Source of the DNA: Candidatus Jordarchaeia archaeon
Lineage (GTDB): Archaea > Asgardarchaeota > Jordiarchaeia > Jordiarchaeales > Jordiarchaeaceae
Length of the DNA stretch: 53,469 nucleotides
Assembly: GCA_029856435.1 (NCBI GenBank)
Contig: JAHQXB010000106.1
Coordinates: forward strand, 1 to 53,469
Direction: 5' to 3'
Part shown: positions 2,033-14,249 of the stretch, piece by piece
Numbering within the stretch: the stretch's first letter is position 1
How the letters are laid out: each line of letters begins with the position of its first letter
Position numbers and translations under genes: made by a program
The notes under the pieces: generated by a model
Told to the model about the DNA's origin: nothing
Database searches by the model: none
The model's input: the letters and a program-made list of their open reading frames with translations, nothing else

Positions 2033-2472
2033 CTAAAATACCCCTACAACACTCAAATCCACAACAAACCAACCATACCAAATATACACACTCACACCAA
2101 TACACAGCTTCAAACGGACCAAAAACCTCTTTCGACCCGTTTGAAAACACCAAACCAATCCACAAAAAAATACGCAAAAAACCTTTTAAATTCTTCCAGA
2201 ATACCAAAAACACAAACCAAAAATCACCAAGAACCCTTCGCCTAACAACAAAAACATCCAAACCCCAAAATCCACAAAAAATTAGAAAACACACATATGG
2301 TGGAAACATCAAAGGACATGAAAACAAAAATCCACAAACAATAAAACCCCAAAAAAACCAAAAACGAAGACCATACCCAGTCAATAAATACTAAAAAAAC
2401 TACAAATAACCTAATGTGTTTTAGAAAGTGCAAATAAGTTTTCCACAACAAATAAAAAAGCGGTGCCCCACA

Positions 2473-3465
2473 ATGGCCATAGTCGAAACAAACAACCTAA
2501 CAAAAATCTACGGCGGAAAATTCACCGCAGTGGACCACATAAGCTTCCAAGTACAAGAAGGAGAAATATTCGGATTCCTAGGACCAAATGGAGCCGGAAA
2601 AACAACCACCGTACATATGCTATGCACCCTAACCCAAATAACCGAAGGAGAAGCCAAAATAGCAGGAATAGACGTAAAAAAACAACCAGACGAAGTAAGA
2701 AAAAAAATAGGACTAGTACCCCAAGACATAAGCGTAGACGACGAACTCACAGCAAAAGAAAACATGGAACTACACGGCAAACTCTATCACATGCCCAAAA
2801 GCCTCATACAACAAAGAATACCCGAACTCCTCCAAATCGTAGAACTAACCGAATGGCAAAACACCCTAGTCAAAAAATTCTCCGGCGGAATGCGCCGCAG
2901 ACTAGAAATCGCCGAAGGACTAATGCACCACCCAGACATACTATTCCTTGACGAACCTACCCTTGGGCTCGATCCTGCAAGTCGTACTAGTATTTGGGAG
3001 TATGTTAGGAAGCTGAATGAGGAGGGTATCACGATTTTTATGACCACTCATTATATGGATGAGGCTGATAAGCTGTGTGATCGTATTGCGATTATTGATT
3101 ATGGGAAGATTGTGAATACTGGTTCTCCGGAGGAGCTTAAGGGGATGCTAGGTGGGGATGTGGTTACGGTGCATGCTAATGATAGAGAGAAGTTTCTGAG
3201 CCACATTAAGACTTTGGATTTTGTTACTGAGGTTTTGCCGCAGGAGGATGGTATTCGGTTGACGGTTGATAGGGGTGAGACTGCGATACCCAAGTTGTTT
3301 CAGGAGGCGAGCAGGATTGGTGTGAGTATAGATAATATTTCTTTGAGTCGTCCCACTCTTGACGATGTTTTCATAAAGTTTACGGGTAGGAGTCTTAGGG
3401 AGGAGAAAGCGGACAGGATTGAGTTATTTAAGAGAATGATGTTAATGAAGAGAAGAAGGCGTTAA
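2473..3465 (+). CDS. ABC exporter ATP-binding subunit (DrrA family)
   Basis: Walker A GPNGAGKTT, signature FSGGM, Walker B ILFLDEPT, H-loop TTHYM; ATG at 2473 chosen as the start. Confidence 0.95.
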   Translation: MAIVETNNLTKIYGGKFTAVDHISFQVQEGEIFGFLGPNGAGKTTTVHMLCTLTQITEGEAKIAGIDVKKQPDEVRKKIGLVPQDISVDDELTAKENMELHGKLYHMPKSLIQQRIPELLQIVELTEWQNTLVKKFSGGMRRRLEIAEGLMHHPDILFLDEPTLGLDPASRTSIWEYVRKLNEEGITIFMTTHYMDEADKLCDRIAIIDYGKIVNTGSPEELKGMLGGDVVTVHANDREKFLSHIKTLDFVTEVLPQEDGIRLTVDRGETAIPKLFQEASRIGVSIDNISLSRPTLDDVFIKFTGRSLREEKADRIELFKRMMLMKRRRR

Positions 3466-7594: not shown

Positions 7595-8482
7595 TTGGGT
7601 GAGAAAACTACTCTGATTCAGCCTCTTAGAAGGTATTTACGGGAGGATAGGCTTCCCACAGTTTTCTGTCCGGGTTGTGGTAATGGAATAATAATGAACT
7701 GTACCCTACGGGCTATAGATGAATTGGGTATTAACATAGATGACATAGTTTTTGTTTCTGGAATAGGATGCTCAGGTAGAATACCAGGATACATTGATGC
7801 TGACAGTCTGCATGTGACACATGGTAGAGCTGTAGCCTTCGCCACAGGAATCAAACTATTCAACCCCGACTTTGAAGTAATTGTCTTCACTGGGAACGGA
7901 GACAGTGGGGCAATTGGAATATCACATCTGGTGCACGCCGCTAGAAGAAATATAGACATTAATGTGATTAGTGTCAACAATTTGGTTTACGCTTTGACCG
8001 GCAGCCAGACGAGTCCCACCACTCCTGTGGGAGCCTACACGTATACTTCTCCCTACGGTAGTGTGGAGGGCTTTTTTGACCTCTGTGAGTTGGTTACCAG
8101 TGCTGGCGCTAGTTACGTGGCTCGATGGAGCACCGTTCAGCCTCAGAGAATAATAAGTTCCATAATTAAAGGCATACAGAAAAAGGGATTTACCTACATA
8201 GAAGTTATCAGTCAGTGTCCAACCCAGTTCGGAAGAAAAAACGAGATGCCCGACCCCAAGCAACTCATGGATTGGTTCAGGGAGCGCACCGTGAAACTAG
8301 AAGTTGCAAAGAAGCTTCCTCCAAGAAAAATAAGCGGGAAACTGATACTGGGGGAATTCGCTGACAGGGATAGACCTGAAATGGCTAACGAGTACAGAAA
8401 GCTCATTGAGGGGGTGCAGAGGGGAACCATTAAATTGAAAAGGCCGCAGTTGGATTGGCTTGAATTGTCTTTTAGAGAGTGA
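7595..8482 (+). CDS. korB: 2-oxoacid:ferredoxin oxidoreductase beta subunit (TPP-binding)
   Basis: FCPGCGNG, SGIGCSGR, HGRA, SQCPTQFGR; the TPP motif reads GNGD. Confidence 0.88.
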   Translation: MGEKTTLIQPLRRYLREDRLPTVFCPGCGNGIIMNCTLRAIDELGINIDDIVFVSGIGCSGRIPGYIDADSLHVTHGRAVAFATGIKLFNPDFEVIVFTGNGDSGAIGISHLVHAARRNIDINVISVNNLVYALTGSQTSPTTPVGAYTYTSPYGSVEGFFDLCELVTSAGASYVARWSTVQPQRIISSIIKGIQKKGFTYIEVISQCPTQFGRKNEMPDPKQLMDWFRERTVKLEVAKKLPPRKISGKLILGEFADRDRPEMANEYRKLIEGVQRGTIKLKRPQLDWLELSFRE

Positions 8483-9207: not shown

Positions 9208-9642
9208 ATGGTGAGTTGTTTGTCTGAAAACGATGAAGACAGAATACCGCGAGTCTGGGCGGGGAGATTTAACCGTTGTTGGCTTCTCGCAATGTTTGTT
9301 CAACACACGCTCCTAGCTAGGGAAGGAATAACCGTCCCTTCAACACAGGAAATGATGAGAATGAATCCGGGGATTGACATAGCGGAGGCGATTAACTTAC
9401 AGAGACAAGAATACGGCGCTGAAGTGGATTGGGAAAAGCAGACCATTATTGTAAGATACAAATCAAGAAGGTATGACATAACCGAATTGATTATTGAAAT
9501 TGTTAACGAGTGCACCTATGGAGATATTATTGACGAGTTGAGCGTAGACACAAAGGGATTCGACTTTACAAGTGCAATAGGTCGGGCTCAGAAAAACATT
9601 ATATCCAAAATTGTGAGCGGTAAACTTCCGCACAAAAAGTAA
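9208..9642 (+). CDS. Hypothetical protein
   Basis: 144-aa ORF with globular composition between AT-rich spacers; no family recognised. Confidence 0.6.
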   Translation: MVSCLSENDEDRIPRVWAGRFNRCWLLAMFVQHTLLAREGITVPSTQEMMRMNPGIDIAEAINLQRQEYGAEVDWEKQTIIVRYKSRRYDITELIIEIVNECTYGDIIDELSVDTKGFDFTSAIGRAQKNIISKIVSGKLPHKK

Positions 9643-9884
9643 AAATATACATGAACTTGTGTTTCTAAAATAATTCATCATTTAAAAGAAATTTCTAAAT
9701 TGTGGCATTTAAAAAATAAAGAATTTTTGATAAAGTATGCTTTTTCCTTTACAAAAGAGTTTTTAAGTAAGTGTTCTAAATCTGTTCTATTAAACTTGTG
9801 AACCTTAAAATTTCCTTATTCAGTTCGGTTAGTTTAATCTTGTTTTTTCATTTGTTGCTTTTAATTTTTAGAGGATTGAAAAAT

Positions 9885-10631
9885 ATGATTCACATTATAG
9901 GTCTAAAAGGAATCCCAATAGTTAAGGAAGGAGATAATATTGCGAGACTCATCTTAGAAGCTGCTAAAGCCCAAGGCATAGAAATTAAAGCTAAGGACAT
10001 TTTTGTTATTGCCCAAACCATAGTTTCTAGAGCTGAGGGCAGTGTGGTTGATCTTAATACAGTAGTTCCATCCGATTTTGCTATAAGAACTGCTGAGAGG
10101 TTTGAAAAGGATCCTCGTCAGGTAGAGGTTATACTTAGGGAGGCGAAACAAATTATTAGAATGGAGCACGCCATAATAACAGAAACCAAGCACGGTTTTA
10201 TTTGCGCCAATTCCGGTGTAGACAAATCAAATATGCCGGGCGAACACTTTGTTTCTCTACTGCCTAGAGATCCGGAAAAATCAGCTAGGGAAATAAGAAA
10301 AGAATTGGAAAAATTAACTGGAGTCAAACTAGCGGTAATAATTTCAGACACTCATGGTCGACCCTTCAGGGAGGGAGCCATCAATGTTGCGATTGGCGTA
10401 TCTGGAATGAAACCTATTTGGGATAGGAGAGGTGATGTTGACCTTTTTGGTTATATTCTGAAATCTACACTGGTGGGAATCGCGGATGAGTTGGCGTCGG
10501 CTGCGGAGCTCGTTATGGGTGAGGCTAATGAAGGAATTCCAGTGGTCATAATAAGGGGTTTCGACTATATTGAAGGTGAAGGAAGCATTAAAGACTTATT
10601 AAGGGCGCCCGAGAAGGACATGTTTCGATAA
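9885..10631 (+). CDS. cofE: Coenzyme F420-0:L-glutamate ligase
   Basis: IPIVKEGD, VSRAEG, ANSGVDKSN, IISDTHGRPFREG, DELASAAELVMGE; ATG 9885; 248 aa with no nitroreductase domain. Confidence 0.95.
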   Translation: MIHIIGLKGIPIVKEGDNIARLILEAAKAQGIEIKAKDIFVIAQTIVSRAEGSVVDLNTVVPSDFAIRTAERFEKDPRQVEVILREAKQIIRMEHAIITETKHGFICANSGVDKSNMPGEHFVSLLPRDPEKSAREIRKELEKLTGVKLAVIISDTHGRPFREGAINVAIGVSGMKPIWDRRGDVDLFGYILKSTLVGIADELASAAELVMGEANEGIPVVIIRGFDYIEGEGSIKDLLRAPEKDMFR

Positions 10632-10646
10632 TAAGAGCGTGGAAAA

Positions 10647-11573
10647 ATGATAACGGTACTCTCCGGAGGAACAGGCAGCCTAAAACTTATACAAGGTCTT
10701 CTCAATTTTATGAAGCCTGAGGAAGTAACTCTCATAGTCAACACTGCAGACGACTTTGAATGGCAGGGACTATACATTAGCCCCGACATTGATACCGCCA
10801 TCTACCTTCTGGCCGGCCTTCTGGATGAAAACAGGTTTTGGGGAATAAAGGATGACACATTTCACTTTTTAAGTATGATGAAAAGGTATGGTTACCCAGA
10901 CTGGTTCTCCATTGGGGATCGGGACCTAGCAACCCACCTACACAGAACCATATTACTAAAAAAAGGTTACACTTTGTCCGATGCCACCAACTCGCTGTGC
11001 AAGGCCTTTAATATAAGGGTAAAAATTCTGCCCATGTCTAATGATAAGGTAACCACCTTTGTGAAAACTGATAAAGGAAAATTTCACTTCCAAGAGTTTT
11101 GGGTTAAGAGAAAAGGTGAAGATAAAGTTTTAGGCGTCATTTTTGAGGGAATAGAAAAGGCTAAGCCAGCCCCCGGAGTTGTGGAATCGATAAAAAAGTC
11201 TGAGGGTATAATCATTGGTCCAAGCAACCCCGTTACCAGTATAGGGCCAATCCTCGGCGTATCCCAGATAAAAAAAGCTCTGGAGAGAGTTAATGTCAAG
11301 AGGATCTGTATTAGTCCCATAATAGGTGGCGGGCCGGTCAGTGGACCGGCAGGAAACTTGTTGAGGGGTATAGGTGTTGAAGTGTCGCCCTTCGGAGTGG
11401 CTAGCATTTATCAAGGAATCATAGATGAAATATTTATAGACGCAAGTGACCAAGCTTTCACTGAGAGGATAGAGGGTTTGGGTATCAACGTTTTTTGCAC
11501 AAATATTGTAATGAGGATGGAGGAGGATAAAGTAAATCTTGCTAAACTGGTTATGGAAAGAATGAAAATTTAG
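10647..11573 (+). CDS. cofD: 2-phospho-L-lactate transferase
   Basis: LSGGTG, VNTADD, ISPDIDT, GDRDLATH, FQEFWV, GPSNPVTSIGPIL. Confidence 0.95.
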   Translation: MITVLSGGTGSLKLIQGLLNFMKPEEVTLIVNTADDFEWQGLYISPDIDTAIYLLAGLLDENRFWGIKDDTFHFLSMMKRYGYPDWFSIGDRDLATHLHRTILLKKGYTLSDATNSLCKAFNIRVKILPMSNDKVTTFVKTDKGKFHFQEFWVKRKGEDKVLGVIFEGIEKAKPAPGVVESIKKSEGIIIGPSNPVTSIGPILGVSQIKKALERVNVKRICISPIIGGGPVSGPAGNLLRGIGVEVSPFGVASIYQGIIDEIFIDASDQAFTERIEGLGINVFCTNIVMRMEEDKVNLAKLVMERMKI

Positions 11574-11583
11574 AGGCCGGATA

Positions 11584-12387
11584 ATGGTAAGCGTCAAAAG
11601 CCACGTGGTTTTGGCGGCCATGGCTGGCGTTTGTGATGGTAGGTTCTGTTTTGAAGCTGCCAAAGCTGGCGCTGGTATGGTCATAATGGGCGGGATAAAC
11701 TTTGATGCTGAAACAATTAGAGCTGGCTTGAAAATTAAGAATAGGGGCAGAAGCGAGTTTCATGTAGAACTCTGCGACTTGGAAAACTTTTTATTCAGAG
11801 AAGTAAAAACTGCAAAAAGGGGCGGCGCCCCAGTAGCGGTAAACGTGAGAGTAGCAACACTAGAAGGACTGCTGAGAGCGGGAGAACTCGTTAAAAATAG
11901 TGGTGCAGATGCCTTCGAGCTTAATGCTCACTGTAGGCAACATGAGATAACACAATTGGGCGGAGGTCAAGCATTGCTCCTAAATCTTGACAAACTTAAA
12001 GAATGGATTAAAAGTCTGAAAAAGGTATTGGATTTGCCCTTAATAGTGAAGTGGCGCGCAAATGTGGTGAACGACGTAGCCTTGGCAAAAAACTTGGATT
12101 CCTTGGGAGTAGACGCCTTTCATGTGGATGCCATGAAGCCGGGCTACTCCGAGGCGGACTTGGAAGTTATTAGAAATATTTCAAAAAAAAGTGAAGTGTT
12201 TCTAATTGGAAACAATTCCGTCACTGATCTGAGTACCGCTTTAAGAATGATTGAGGCTGGGGCGCGGGTGGTTTCAGTTGCAAGATATACTCTCAATGAT
12301 CCTCGATTGGTTGGAAGGCTTGCACGGGAAGTTGAGGAGGCCCTGCAAAGAAGGATGTGGAAAATTTCTAATTTGAATTTTGGTTAA
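11584..12387 (+). CDS. MJ0144-like dihydrouridine-synthase-family FMN TIM-barrel protein
   Basis: LAAMAG, ELNAHCRQxEI...GxGQALL, HVDAM, IGNNSV and VSVAR match archaeal DUS-like (NifR3-related) proteins. Confidence 0.85.
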   Translation: MVSVKSHVVLAAMAGVCDGRFCFEAAKAGAGMVIMGGINFDAETIRAGLKIKNRGRSEFHVELCDLENFLFREVKTAKRGGAPVAVNVRVATLEGLLRAGELVKNSGADAFELNAHCRQHEITQLGGGQALLLNLDKLKEWIKSLKKVLDLPLIVKWRANVVNDVALAKNLDSLGVDAFHVDAMKPGYSEADLEVIRNISKKSEVFLIGNNSVTDLSTALRMIEAGARVVSVARYTLNDPRLVGRLAREVEEALQRRMWKISNLNFG

Positions 12388-12414
12388 TTTATATGTTTAG
12401 TATGAGGGATAACC

Positions 12415-13095
12415 TTGAGGATACACGTTGTTATTCCCTTTAAAGGCCTGAAGGAATCCAAGTCAAGGCTAGCTGACCAGATTTCTAATACCCAAAGGAA
12501 GCAATTGGTACTAGCTATGCTTTCCGATGTCATTTCTGCTGTGTCCTCCTCCAAAAAAGTAAGTAATCTCGTCGTGATAACTTCAGATAAATTAATAGAA
12601 GAAATAATCCCCAAAAACGCTATTCTACTTCTGGAGGAAAAGCCGAGAGGGATAAATCAGGCAATAGTTGAAGCCACAGAATACAGTTTGGAAATGAATG
12701 CGGAAGCCACTCTGGTTATTCCCGCCGACCTTCCCTTAATCACACCCCGAGACATTGAAGAAATCATATCAATGGCAAAATCGGAGAGGACAGTAATTCT
12801 TTCTCCGTCCCTAAATGGCGGAACAAACATACTCTATAGATGTCCCCCCAATGTCATTGAACCAAAATTTGGGAAAAACAGCTTCCAAGCACACGTTGAA
12901 GAAACTCGAAAAAAGAATATAGAACCCAAAATATACCGTTCGCCTAGGGTAATCCTCGATTTAGATAAGGTTGAGGACATTAAAAAATTTGTGAGATATG
13001 GTACTCACACGAAAACATTCGATGCAATATGCAAGACCGAGCTAATATTGTCTGTAACTAAAAGTAGAAGAAACCCCAAAATGCACCAGCACTAA
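12415..13095 (+). CDS. cofC: 2-phospho-L-lactate/PEP guanylyltransferase
   Basis: IPFKGLKESKSRL, IPADLPLI, GGTN, FGKNSFQAH, DLDxxEDI. Confidence 0.93.
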   Translation: MRIHVVIPFKGLKESKSRLADQISNTQRKQLVLAMLSDVISAVSSSKKVSNLVVITSDKLIEEIIPKNAILLLEEKPRGINQAIVEATEYSLEMNAEATLVIPADLPLITPRDIEEIISMAKSERTVILSPSLNGGTNILYRCPPNVIEPKFGKNSFQAHVEETRKKNIEPKIYRSPRVILDLDKVEDIKKFVRYGTHTKTFDAICKTELILSVTKSRRNPKMHQH

Positions 13096-13418: not shown

Positions 13419-14249
13419 GTGGTGGAATCTACAATGCCGTCTTTTGTAGAATTGCTTATTATAGCTTATTTCATACCCTCCATAGTCCCCGTATTGCCTT
13501 TTCTTAAAGTATTTTGCCCCTCAATACTGAACTTGTTAATACCTGAGAGCATCAAATTGATACTTCCCCTTGAGAGTACTTTTCTGGACTACATACAATT
13601 CGCTGTAGCTTTGTTTGTTTCGATCATTAGCTTGATTCTAGGTTACAAAGTTTATAAGAAGAACCCAGATTATTGGCTTAACAAAATTTTTGCAGCCTTC
13701 TATGTAGGGATAGCTGCAGCCGCAGTAAGCTTCAACCTAGGACTTTTCATAAACGCCACAGGTTTAATAATTGGGCAAAAGTTCATGTTAAGCTTCATCT
13801 TAATATCTATAGGTCTACTGCTCATAGTTGCCGTGGGTCTCAATTATGGAGAAATTCAGATTCGATATCTTAAGGCCATCAGACCCATAATACTATATGT
13901 TATTTTGCCTATGATAGTGGTGTGGCTTCCAGGATCAATAGTGATTCTAGATGTGGCGCCGCCAGACACAGCCTTCTCAGATCTTCTTGTGGTGGTGCTC
14001 ATAATTGCCCTAGTAGTAGGTTTAAGCGTATTATCACATTATTTAATAAAAGTCTACAGAGCCTCTGAGGGCTTATTGAAAAGAAGAATTCTCTTCTTCC
14101 TCGCAGGATTCCTCTCAGCCCTGCTCTTTGGGGGAATCTCCACCAGCCTCGCTAGCATACTAAGCCTACAGATCTTCGACTTAATTAGCCCTTTAATAAT
14201 TCTGATAGGTATATCAATAGTGTACTATGGATTACACATTTCTGAATAA
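13419..14249 (+). CDS. Polytopic (about 7-8 TM) membrane protein, HisKA-7TM-like sensor region
   Basis: Serial hydrophobic helices with a KKNPDYWLNKIF loop; no cytoplasmic output domain. Confidence 0.7.
   Translation: MVESTMPSFVELLIIAYFIPSIVPVLPFLKVFCPSILNLLIPESIKLILPLESTFLDYIQFAVALFVSIISLILGYKVYKKNPDYWLNKIFAAFYVGIAAAAVSFNLGLFINATGLIIGQKFMLSFILISIGLLLIVAVGLNYGEIQIRYLKAIRPIILYVILPMIVVWLPGSIVILDVAPPDTAFSDLLVVVLIIALVVGLSVLSHYLIKVYRASEGLLKRRILFFLAGFLSALLFGGISTSLASILSLQIFDLISPLIILIGISIVYYGLHISE

What the first reader, a model, noticed from the sequence alone, without database searches (positions are those of the whole stretch)
9885..13095. DUS-like flavoreductase embedded in the F420 operon: candidate missing dehydro-F420-0 reductase
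Seen: cofE-cofD-X-cofC with gaps of only 15, 10 and 27 nt. X is an MJ0144-like dihydrouridine-synthase-family FMN barrel that keeps its catalytic-type Cys (NAHC). CofE is the short 248-aa form with no nitroreductase domain. Established: when CofC/FbiD uses PEP, CofD yields dehydro-F420-0, whose enolpyruvyl C=C is reduced in mycobacteria by the FMN-dependent C-terminal domain of FbiB; DUS enzymes reduce a C=C with FMN/NADPH. Inference: X may be the archaeal dehydro-F420 (or EPPG) reductase rather than a tRNA enzyme, which would be an undescribed branch of F420 biosynthesis. I recall a similar cofC-DUS adjacency in haloarchaea, which needs checking.
Basis: partly seen in the sequence, partly recalled or inferred. 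Interest (0 to 1): 0.78.

Follow-up and report, generated by a model that had tools for sequence, protein, structure and literature searches.

The report
Candidate missing reductase of archaeal F420
A small flavin enzyme that databases call an archaeal tRNA dihydrouridine synthase sits inside the coenzyme F420 operon of this Asgard archaeon, in the slot that the known F420 side-chain reductase holds in other archaea, which makes it a directly testable candidate for a step of archaeal F420 synthesis that nobody has assigned.

Summary
The window holds cofE (short, 248 aa), cofD, X and cofC, with gaps of 15, 10 and 27 nt. X is a 267-aa MJ0144-family ("archaeal Dus") FMN barrel with the NAHC motif.

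- In 121 Asgard genomes, X occurs only where cofD occurs (27 of 27).
- It lies directly downstream of cofD in 26 of those 27.
- It never co-occurs with a cofD-linked FbiB-C-type nitroreductase (fused or free); that type is found in 41 other cofD-bearing genomes.
- X does not track the methanopterin marker RFAP synthase.
- The cofD-X link recurs in haloarchaea-like genomes and, with arfA between the two genes, in Methanobacteriaceae.
- X has only the catalytic barrel and lacks the Dus tRNA-binding helical domain.
- Haloferax volcanii carries a family member although its tRNAs contain no dihydrouridine.

My best reading is that X is an FMN ene-reductase of the enolpyruvyl group, most likely acting on dehydro-F420-0.

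Three caveats apply. The exact substrate is open. About a third of cofD-bearing Euryarchaeota sampled, and 12 Asgard genomes, have neither reductase. In class II methanogens X is fused to the methanogenesis marker 9 domain and sits beside methanopterin genes.

No paper found makes this link. This scan has already reported the same thing on other genomes (16 notes from at least 15 genomes).

The parts
9643..9884 (+). AT-rich spacer upstream of the operon (probable promoter region); AGAGG ribosome-binding site 9 nt before the cofE ATG
   Evidence: the previous ORF ends at 9642
9885..10631 (+). cofE, F420-0:gamma-glutamyl ligase, short single-domain form (248 aa)
   Evidence: PF01996 273 bits, TIGR01916 301 bits; matches only positions 10-244 of the FbiB model NF009810
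10647..11573 (+). cofD, Fo:(enolpyruvyl/lactyl)-diphospho-guanosine transferase
   Evidence: TIGR01819 347 bits
11584..12387 (+). X, MJ0144-family ('archaeal Dus') FMN TIM-barrel; candidate enolpyruvyl (dehydro-F420-0) reductase
   Evidence: comparative genomics
12415..13095 (+). cofC, PEP/2-phospho-L-lactate guanylyltransferase (TTG start)
   Evidence: TIGR03552 175 bits, PF01983 127 bits
13096..13418 (+). T-rich spacer after cofC; end of the unit
   Evidence: the next ORF starts at 13419

Best explanation
X is an FMN-dependent ene-reductase that belongs to F420 biosynthesis, not to tRNA modification. Proposed pathway: CofC activates phosphoenolpyruvate, CofD transfers the enolpyruvyl phosphate to Fo to give dehydro-F420-0, X reduces the enolpyruvyl C=C to the lactyl group, and the short CofE then adds glutamates. 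The proposed chemistry is hydride transfer from reduced FMN to the methylene carbon and a proton from Cys117 to C2, with Lys156 and the conserved Arg and His residues holding the carboxylate and phosphate. On this reading X is a non-homologous replacement of the nitroreductase-fold C-terminal domain of FbiB. What is shown: the gene order, the family, the fold, and the phyletic and positional patterns. What is inferred: the substrate, the electron donor and the mechanism.
For: (1) The genome has a full F420 gene set (cofG and cofH; cofC, cofD, cofE here), no FbiB-C nitroreductase hit, and X as its only true Dus-family gene. (2) Among 121 Asgard genomes, cofD is in 81 and X in 27, all of them cofD-positive; in 26 of the 27, X lies about 50-110 nt downstream of cofD on the same strand, and the 27th is split by contig ends. 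(3) In the same sample, 41 cofD-positive genomes instead carry an FbiB-C-type nitroreductase, fused to cofE (about 475-aa ORFs) or as a free 205-250-aa ORF; nearly all of those listed abut cofD. Leaving out one weak 66-bit generic nitroreductase hit away from cofD in an X genome (G082), X and the nitroreductase never share a genome. By family: 8 with X only, 6 with the nitroreductase only, none with both; my hypergeometric P for no overlap is 0.011. (4) X is independent of methanopterin synthesis: it is present in 4 families without RFAP synthase and not found in 6 families with it. (5) In the phylum of locus L028 (its record is labelled Thermoproteota), X was found in 1 of 201 genomes and a free FbiB-C nitroreductase in 46 of 201. 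The six best loci read NTR-cofD(-cofC), and the one genome with X has no nitroreductase. (6) cofD lies within 400 nt of X in 15 of 15 loci labelled Asgard or Thermoproteota and in 15 of 15 high-GC haloarchaea-like loci, and within 1.5 kb (with arfA between) in 35 of 38 Methanobacteriaceae loci. The X tree is monophyletic against canonical Dus and broadly follows the taxa. (7) The model (pLDDT 97.7) is a single (beta/alpha)8 barrel plus one C-terminal helix. Its nearest folds are Dus, old yellow enzyme/XenA ene-reductases and dihydroorotate dehydrogenase, all FMN enzymes that act on activated C=C bonds. (8) H. volcanii has a family member (control), yet dihydrouridine is absent from its tRNAs (PMC2584109). 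(9) M. jannaschii CofC plus CofD make only dehydro-F420-0 in yeast, and the archaeal reductase is still called 'yet-unknown' (PMC10949242; PMC6450877).
Against: No biochemical data exist. Archaeal CofC/CofD pairs, including those of M. jannaschii and M. mazei (which have X), preferred 2-phospho-L-lactate in vitro (PMC8764529), and that route needs no reductase. Of 196 cofD-positive genomes in the phylum that holds Methanosarcina, about 62 lack both X and a true FbiB-C nitroreductase. Twelve cofD-positive Asgard genomes have neither, and two of them (G096, G114) read cofD-cofC with no X although congeners have it. In Archaeoglobus-like genomes X sits beside dapF and pyrD, not cof genes. In Methanosarcinales and relatives X is fused to a methanogenesis marker 9 domain and is followed by CitG-like, DUF447 and DmrX genes. 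Kin share gene order, so the genome counts overstate independence.
Confidence: 0.55

Rival explanations
1. X reduces the enolpyruvyl group one or two steps earlier: PEP to 2-phospho-L-lactate, or EPPG to LPPG. It would then be the unidentified source of 2-phospho-L-lactate in place of a lactate kinase 'CofB', and CofC/CofD would handle the saturated compound.
For: All the genomic evidence above fits equally well, since an upstream reduction would also make the nitroreductase unnecessary. Archaeal CofC/CofD pairs prefer 2-phospho-L-lactate in vitro, and its origin is unknown. The family has many invariant or near-invariant Arg, Lys and His residues suited to a small phospho-carboxylate.
Against: X takes the place of an enzyme type shown to act on dehydro-F420-0 (PMC6450877). 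X follows cofD rather than preceding cofC. From my own memory of Graupner and White 2001, a GTP-dependent lactate kinase activity was seen in methanogen extracts.
Confidence: 0.17
2. X is what its name says: an RNA dihydrouridine synthase of archaea (tRNA or rRNA) that is merely carried in a cofactor operon.
For: It is homologous to Dus (PF01207 66 bits; E. coli DusB 6ei9 is the best sequence and fold match). The catalytic Cys and Lys are kept. The window protein is basic (pI 9.2). It is the only Dus-family gene in the genome.
Against: It has no helical tRNA-binding domain. The motifs are changed (NxGCP to NAHCRQ, HxR to HxD). It was found only in cofD-positive genomes and is exclusive with an F420 reductase. 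H. volcanii has the gene but no tRNA dihydrouridine. It was found in 151 of 151 genomes of the phylum that holds Methanobacterium, although dihydrouridine is rare or absent in hyperthermophilic archaea.
Confidence: 0.08
3. X serves another cofactor pathway, such as the unassigned reduction in methanopterin synthesis or a methanogen-specific cofactor, and its place beside cofD reflects a general cofactor super-cluster.
For: The order X-CitG-DUF447-DmrX is found in Methanosarcinales, Methanocellales and relatives. X is fused to the methanogenesis marker 9 domain there, and Methanobacteriaceae read X-atwA-mmp9. cofD-CitG-DUF447 stays together even where X is missing (L152, L154). Haloarchaea and the window's genome have RFAP synthase, CitG and DUF447.
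Against: In Asgard archaea X occurs in four families without RFAP synthase and was not found in six families with it. The S. acidocaldarius control has RFAP synthase, CitG and DUF447 but neither X nor cofD. In the window neither CitG nor DUF447 is near X; they lie on other contigs.
Confidence: 0.1

Closest known systems
C-terminal nitroreductase-fold domain of FbiB, and stand-alone nitroreductase-family dehydro-F420-0 reductases (Mycobacterium; Thermomicrobia)
   Same: Proposed to use the same cofactor (FMN) and carry out the same reaction. It sits at the same genomic locus: fused to cofE or next to cofD in Asgard genomes and in genomes labelled Thermoproteota. The two are mutually exclusive across genomes (PMC6450877, PMC8764529).
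   Different: The fold is unrelated (alpha+beta nitroreductase versus TIM barrel), and there is no sequence similarity. X sits downstream of cofD, whereas the free nitroreductase usually sits upstream. No activity has been shown for X.
tRNA dihydrouridine synthases (DusA/B/C, Dus1-4; PF01207, COG0042), e.g. E. coli DusB 6ei9 and T. thermophilus Dus 3b0v
   Same: Homologous FMN barrel; Cys117 and Lys156 align with the catalytic pair; the chemistry is reduction of a C=C conjugated to a carbonyl.
   Different: About 18-21% identity. X has no C-terminal helical tRNA-binding domain. The motifs are NAHCRQ in place of NxGCP and HxD in place of HxR. The genomic context is cofactor synthesis.
MJ0144 family / 'archaeal Dus' subfamily (NCBIfam TIGR00736; Kasprzak et al. 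2012, PMC3674756)
   Same: This is the family X belongs to: same length, same motifs, and monophyletic with it in the tree.
   Different: The family has no experimentally shown function; its name is by homology only. The window protein scores 200 bits, under the curated cut-off of 218.7.
Old yellow enzyme-type ene-reductases, dihydroorotate dehydrogenase, and MurB (UDP-N-acetylenolpyruvylglucosamine reductase; MurB from my own knowledge)
   Same: Flavin-dependent reduction of an activated C=C; MurB reduces an enolpyruvyl ether, the closest chemical precedent. OYE/XenA and DHOD are among the best fold matches.
   Different: Similarity is at fold or chemistry level only. MurB uses FAD and a different fold.

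Membership tests
tRNA dihydrouridine synthase (Dus, PF01207/COG0042) | FMN-binding (beta/alpha)8 barrel homologous to Dus | tested here: met
   PF01207 66 bits against a cut-off of 20.4; profile hit to DusB 6ei9 at E 1.5e-24; Foldseek places Dus structures in the top ranks, TM about 0.7
tRNA dihydrouridine synthase (Dus, PF01207/COG0042) | Catalytic Cys in the NxGCP motif and Lys in the KxR motif | tested here: inconclusive
   Cys117 and Lys156-x-Arg158 are invariant or nearly so, but the motif reads N-A-H-C-R-Q, and HxR is replaced by H180-x-D182
tRNA dihydrouridine synthase (Dus, PF01207/COG0042) | C-terminal helical domain that binds tRNA | tested here: not met
   The model (pLDDT 97.7) ends after one helix (residues 242-264) and the protein has 267 aa. 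Family members are 230-270 aa, against 306-315 modelled residues in the solved Dus chains
tRNA dihydrouridine synthase (Dus, PF01207/COG0042) | Forms dihydrouridine in RNA | not testable with these tools
   Indirect only: H. volcanii has a family member but no dihydrouridine in its tRNAs
MJ0144 family (TIGR00736, 'archaeal Dus') | Score over the curated cut-off | tested here: not met
   200.4 bits against 218.7; Asgard relatives range from 117 to 243 bits
MJ0144 family (TIGR00736, 'archaeal Dus') | Family motifs and monophyly against canonical Dus | tested here: met
   E112, H116, C117, G128 and K156 are invariant in 42 members. A clade of 125 rows separates from Dus with SH-like support of 100 in a FastTree tree
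Dehydro-F420-0 reductase of the FbiB-C / nitroreductase type (TIGR03553) | Nitroreductase fold and sequence | tested here: not met
   X is a TIM barrel. The genome has no TIGR03553 hit at E<=1e-15. X would be an analogue, not a member
Dehydro-F420-0 reductase of the FbiB-C / nitroreductase type (TIGR03553) | Works like it: linked to cofD/cofE and required where CofE is single-domain | tested here: met
   Same locus and a mutually exclusive distribution
Dehydro-F420-0 reductase (activity) | Reduces dehydro-F420-0 to F420-0 | not testable with these tools
   Needs an enzyme assay or heterologous complementation

The most novel reading that the evidence does not exclude
The whole 'archaeal Dus'/MJ0144 family is the long-sought archaeal dehydro-F420-0 reductase ('CofX'). 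The PEP route through dehydro-F420-0 would then be the main route to F420 in class I methanogens (X found in 151 of 151 genomes sampled), haloarchaea and many Asgard archaea. In that case archaea would have no dedicated Dus-type tRNA enzyme of this family, and its fusion to methanogenesis marker 9 would tie that orphan marker to F420 supply.
Probability: 0.4. Interest if true: 0.85.

Novelty: new variant of a known kind. Interest (0 to 1): 0.75.

Why it matters
F420 is central to methanogenesis and to many archaeal redox reactions, and it is wanted for biocatalysis. Since 2019 the origin of its lactyl group in archaea has been disputed. No lactate kinase has been identified, and no reductase for the PEP route has been found in organisms with a single-domain CofE (PMC6450877, PMC8764529, PMC10949242).

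A named candidate gene turns that dispute into a one-step experiment. It would also correct a widespread annotation ('tRNA-dihydrouridine synthase') and would supply a compact reductase for engineered F420 pathways.

The survey also shows that FbiB-C-type reductases next to cofD are common in Asgard genomes and in genomes labelled Thermoproteota. An earlier search near cofE missed them.

Tried and rejected
- Complex prediction of CofD with X: no verdict, so it is not used as evidence.
- RNA evidence: no RNA holder was listed. Two libraries labelled metatranscriptomic, but flagged as probably DNA, hold contigs of a relative about 93% identical that cover the operon. Contigs cannot show a transcript, so this is not used.
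- Charge and pI of X against canonical Dus: not discriminating. The window protein has pI 9.2.
- Haloarchaea as a test case for 'F420 but no methanopterin': this failed as a discriminator because RFAP synthase-like, CitG and DUF447 genes are present there. The Asgard RFAP-synthase profile was used instead.
- The second Dus-like hit in the genome (contig C5) is pyrD with pyrK, not a Dus.
- DUF763 as a further cofD-linked alternative: the AlphaFold model is poor (pLDDT 56) and there is no PDB sequence match, so no fold search was made. DUF763 also co-occurs with X in about 20 genomes, so it is not a clean complement.
- Literature: no paper links F420 biosynthesis with dihydrouridine synthases; 'MJ0144' gave 0 hits and 'CofX' appears only in the 2018 preprint of Bashiri et al..
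- The supplement on H. volcanii open annotation issues discusses the missing step but names no candidate.
Full report
**1. What is in the window.**
Four same-strand genes lie between spacers of 242 nt and 323 nt:
- cofE, 9885-10631, 248 aa;
- cofD, 10647-11573;
- X, 11584-12387, 267 aa;
- cofC, 12415-13095, with a TTG start.

The gaps between them are 15, 10 and 27 nt. Pfam and NCBIfam assign cofE, cofD and cofC well above their curated cut-offs. X matches Dus (PF01207, 66 bits) and the MJ0144 family TIGR00736 (200 bits against a cut-off of 218.7). CofE covers only the ligase half of the FbiB model.

The genome is an Asgard archaeon; its close relatives are labelled Freyarchaeota or Jordarchaeia. 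It also has cofG and cofH. X is its only real Dus-family gene, because the next best hit is pyrD with pyrK.

**2. What X is as a protein.**
Forty-two family members are 230-270 aa long. They share the invariant residues E112, H116, C117, G128 and K156, and the nearly invariant N114, Q119, R158, H180, D182 and N210-N211. These are the 'archaeal Dus' motifs described by Kasprzak et al. (NxHC(K/R) and HxD; PMC3674756).

The AlphaFold model (pLDDT 97.7) is one (beta/alpha)8 barrel plus a single C-terminal helix. The helical tRNA-binding domain of Dus enzymes is missing. The nearest solved folds are Dus, old yellow enzyme/XenA ene-reductases, dihydroorotate dehydrogenase B and dihydropyrimidine dehydrogenase. 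All of these are flavoenzymes that add or remove hydrogen across a C=C bond next to a carbonyl or carboxylate. The enolpyruvyl group is that kind of bond.

**3. Gene neighbourhoods.**
Of 124 distinct loci that encode a family member:
- cofD lies within 400 nt of X in 15 of 15 loci labelled Asgard or Thermoproteota. The order is [cofE]-cofD-X-[cofC], often with a 4-nt overlap, and cofC is sometimes moved.
- cofD lies within 400 nt in 15 of 15 high-GC haloarchaea-like loci (cofD-X-CitG).
- cofD lies within 1.5 kb in 35 of 38 Methanobacteriaceae loci (cofE-cofD-arfA-X).
- Archaeoglobus-like genomes have dapF-X and pyrD instead.
- Methanosarcinales, Methanocellales and relatives have a long form followed by CitG-like, DUF447 and DmrX genes. 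Two loci keep cofD in front of it.

The X tree is monophyletic against canonical Dus and broadly follows the taxa. The cofD link therefore looks old and was lost in some lines.

**4. The key test: the Asgard sample.**
I searched the same 121 genomes with five models.
- cofD was found in 81 genomes and X in 27.
- All 27 genomes with X also have cofD.
- In 26 of them X lies directly downstream of cofD. The 27th is broken at contig ends, and a 28th genome has an X fragment at a contig edge.
- Forty-one other cofD-positive genomes carry an FbiB-C-type nitroreductase. It is fused to cofE in one family and is a free ORF of 205-250 aa in five families; nearly all the listed ones abut cofD.
- Leaving out one weak 66-bit generic nitroreductase hit away from cofD in an X genome (G082), no genome has both.

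By family, 8 have X only, 6 have the nitroreductase only, none has both, 4 have neither, and none of the 8 families without cofD has either. My own arithmetic gives a hypergeometric P of 0.011 for zero overlap among the 18 cofD-bearing families.

The rival 'X serves methanopterin synthesis' fails in this sample. X is present in four families without RFAP synthase, and it was not found in six families that have it.

**5. Other phyla.**
In the phylum of locus L028 (its record is labelled Thermoproteota), X was found in 1 of 201 genomes, while free FbiB-C nitroreductases were found in 46 of 201. The six best loci read NTR-cofD(-cofC), and the one genome with X has no nitroreductase.

In the phylum that holds Methanosarcina, cofD is in 196 of 201 genomes and X in 134 of 201. 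None of the X genomes lacks cofD. In 23 of the X genomes the hit coordinates put X right beside cofD. Only weak generic nitroreductase hits occur there, and about 62 cofD-positive genomes have neither reductase.

In the phylum that holds Methanobacterium, X is in 151 of 151 genomes.

**6. Literature.**
Bashiri et al. (PMC6450877) showed that CofC and CofD can make dehydro-F420-0 from PEP. They postulated an unknown archaeal reductase ('CofX') and searched only for nitroreductase domains near cofE. Hasan et al. (PMC8764529) found that archaeal CofC/CofD pairs prefer 2-phospho-L-lactate. A 2024 study found that M. jannaschii CofC plus CofD make only dehydro-F420-0 in yeast, and it still calls the archaeal reductase unknown (PMC10949242). 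Dihydrouridine is absent from H. volcanii tRNAs (PMC2584109), yet that genome carries a family member (control). No paper found links this family to F420.

**7. Reading.**
The most economical explanation is non-orthologous displacement. At the cofD locus, archaea carry either an FbiB-type nitroreductase or this Dus-like barrel, and both reduce the enolpyruvyl side chain.

I put 0.55 on dehydro-F420-0 as the substrate and 0.17 on an earlier reduction (PEP or EPPG). The earlier reduction would reconcile the in vitro preference for 2-phospho-L-lactate. I put about 0.1 each on an RNA role and on another cofactor pathway.

Weak points:
- There is no biochemistry.
- Many F420 gene sets have neither reductase, and two genomes read cofD-cofC without X although congeners have it.
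- The euryarchaeal contexts are ambiguous because cofD, CitG, DUF447 and DmrX form a cofactor super-cluster.
- The fusion to methanogenesis marker 9 is unexplained.
- Related genomes are not independent observations.

**8. Earlier notes of this scan.**
After forming this reading I looked up the scan's earlier notes. Sixteen notes from at least 15 other genomes describe the same gene pair, and their follow-ups reached the same conclusion. I treat them as repeats, not as support. I ran the tests above myself.

Noticed in passing
L012:8001-9137 (long form); L011:10491-10967; also L016-L095: In Methanosarcinales, Methanocellales, Methanoperedens and relatives, the X barrel is fused to a C-terminal 'methanogenesis marker 9' domain (TIGR03277, 183 bits). 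In Methanobacteriaceae the same domain is a separate 158-aa gene, in the order X-atwA (MCR component A2)-mmp9. Marker 9 has no known function.
   Followed up: partly
L100-L119, L135-L139, L152, L154: A super-cluster cofD-(X)-CitG-like-DUF447(-DmrX, TIGR02700 403 bits) recurs in Euryarchaeota. It stays together as cofD-CitG-DUF447 where X is missing. Haloarchaea-like genomes and the H. volcanii control also carry an RFAP synthase-like gene (141-155 bits), which is unexpected for organisms regarded as folate users.
   Followed up: partly
L096-L099, L181-L186; coordinates: Free FbiB-C-like nitroreductase genes (205-250 aa, 100-175 bits) lie directly next to cofD in many Asgard genomes and genomes labelled Thermoproteota. 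One Asgard family has a full FbiB-like fusion. The 2019 survey that looked near cofE reported almost none in archaea.
   Followed up: yes
L151:4963-6060, L153:6945-8042, L162-L169: In about ten euryarchaeal genomes that lack X, a DUF763 gene (365 aa) sits directly downstream of cofD, in the slot X holds elsewhere. DUF763 is in about 55 of 67 genomes without X and in about 20 of 134 with X. Its sequence shows GGKG motifs and a helix-hairpin-helix-like stretch. The model was too poor to search with.
   Followed up: partly
L142:6949-7866 and 7929-8369; L143, L144: In one Asgard family with cofD but neither X nor the nitroreductase, two conserved ORFs without any Pfam match (305 aa and 146 aa) abut cofD.
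   Followed up: no
L176, L177 (G096, G114): Two genomes of one Asgard genus read cofD-cofC with no X between the genes, whereas three congeners have cofD-X-cofC. This is a recent loss or gain within a genus.
   Followed up: partly
G000 contig C104 (L006:1369-2184 and 2213-3460): A second CofE-like ligase (249 bits to PF01996) lies divergently next to a dihydropteroate synthase-like gene. It is probably a pterin or folate glutamate ligase rather than an F420 enzyme.
   Followed up: no
window 9208-9642: A 144-aa ORF lies just upstream of the operon. The ORF at the same position in the Freyarchaeota relative (L008, 140 aa) has no Pfam hit; I did not compare the two sequences. Pyruvate:ferredoxin oxidoreductase subunit genes lie further upstream.
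   Followed up: no
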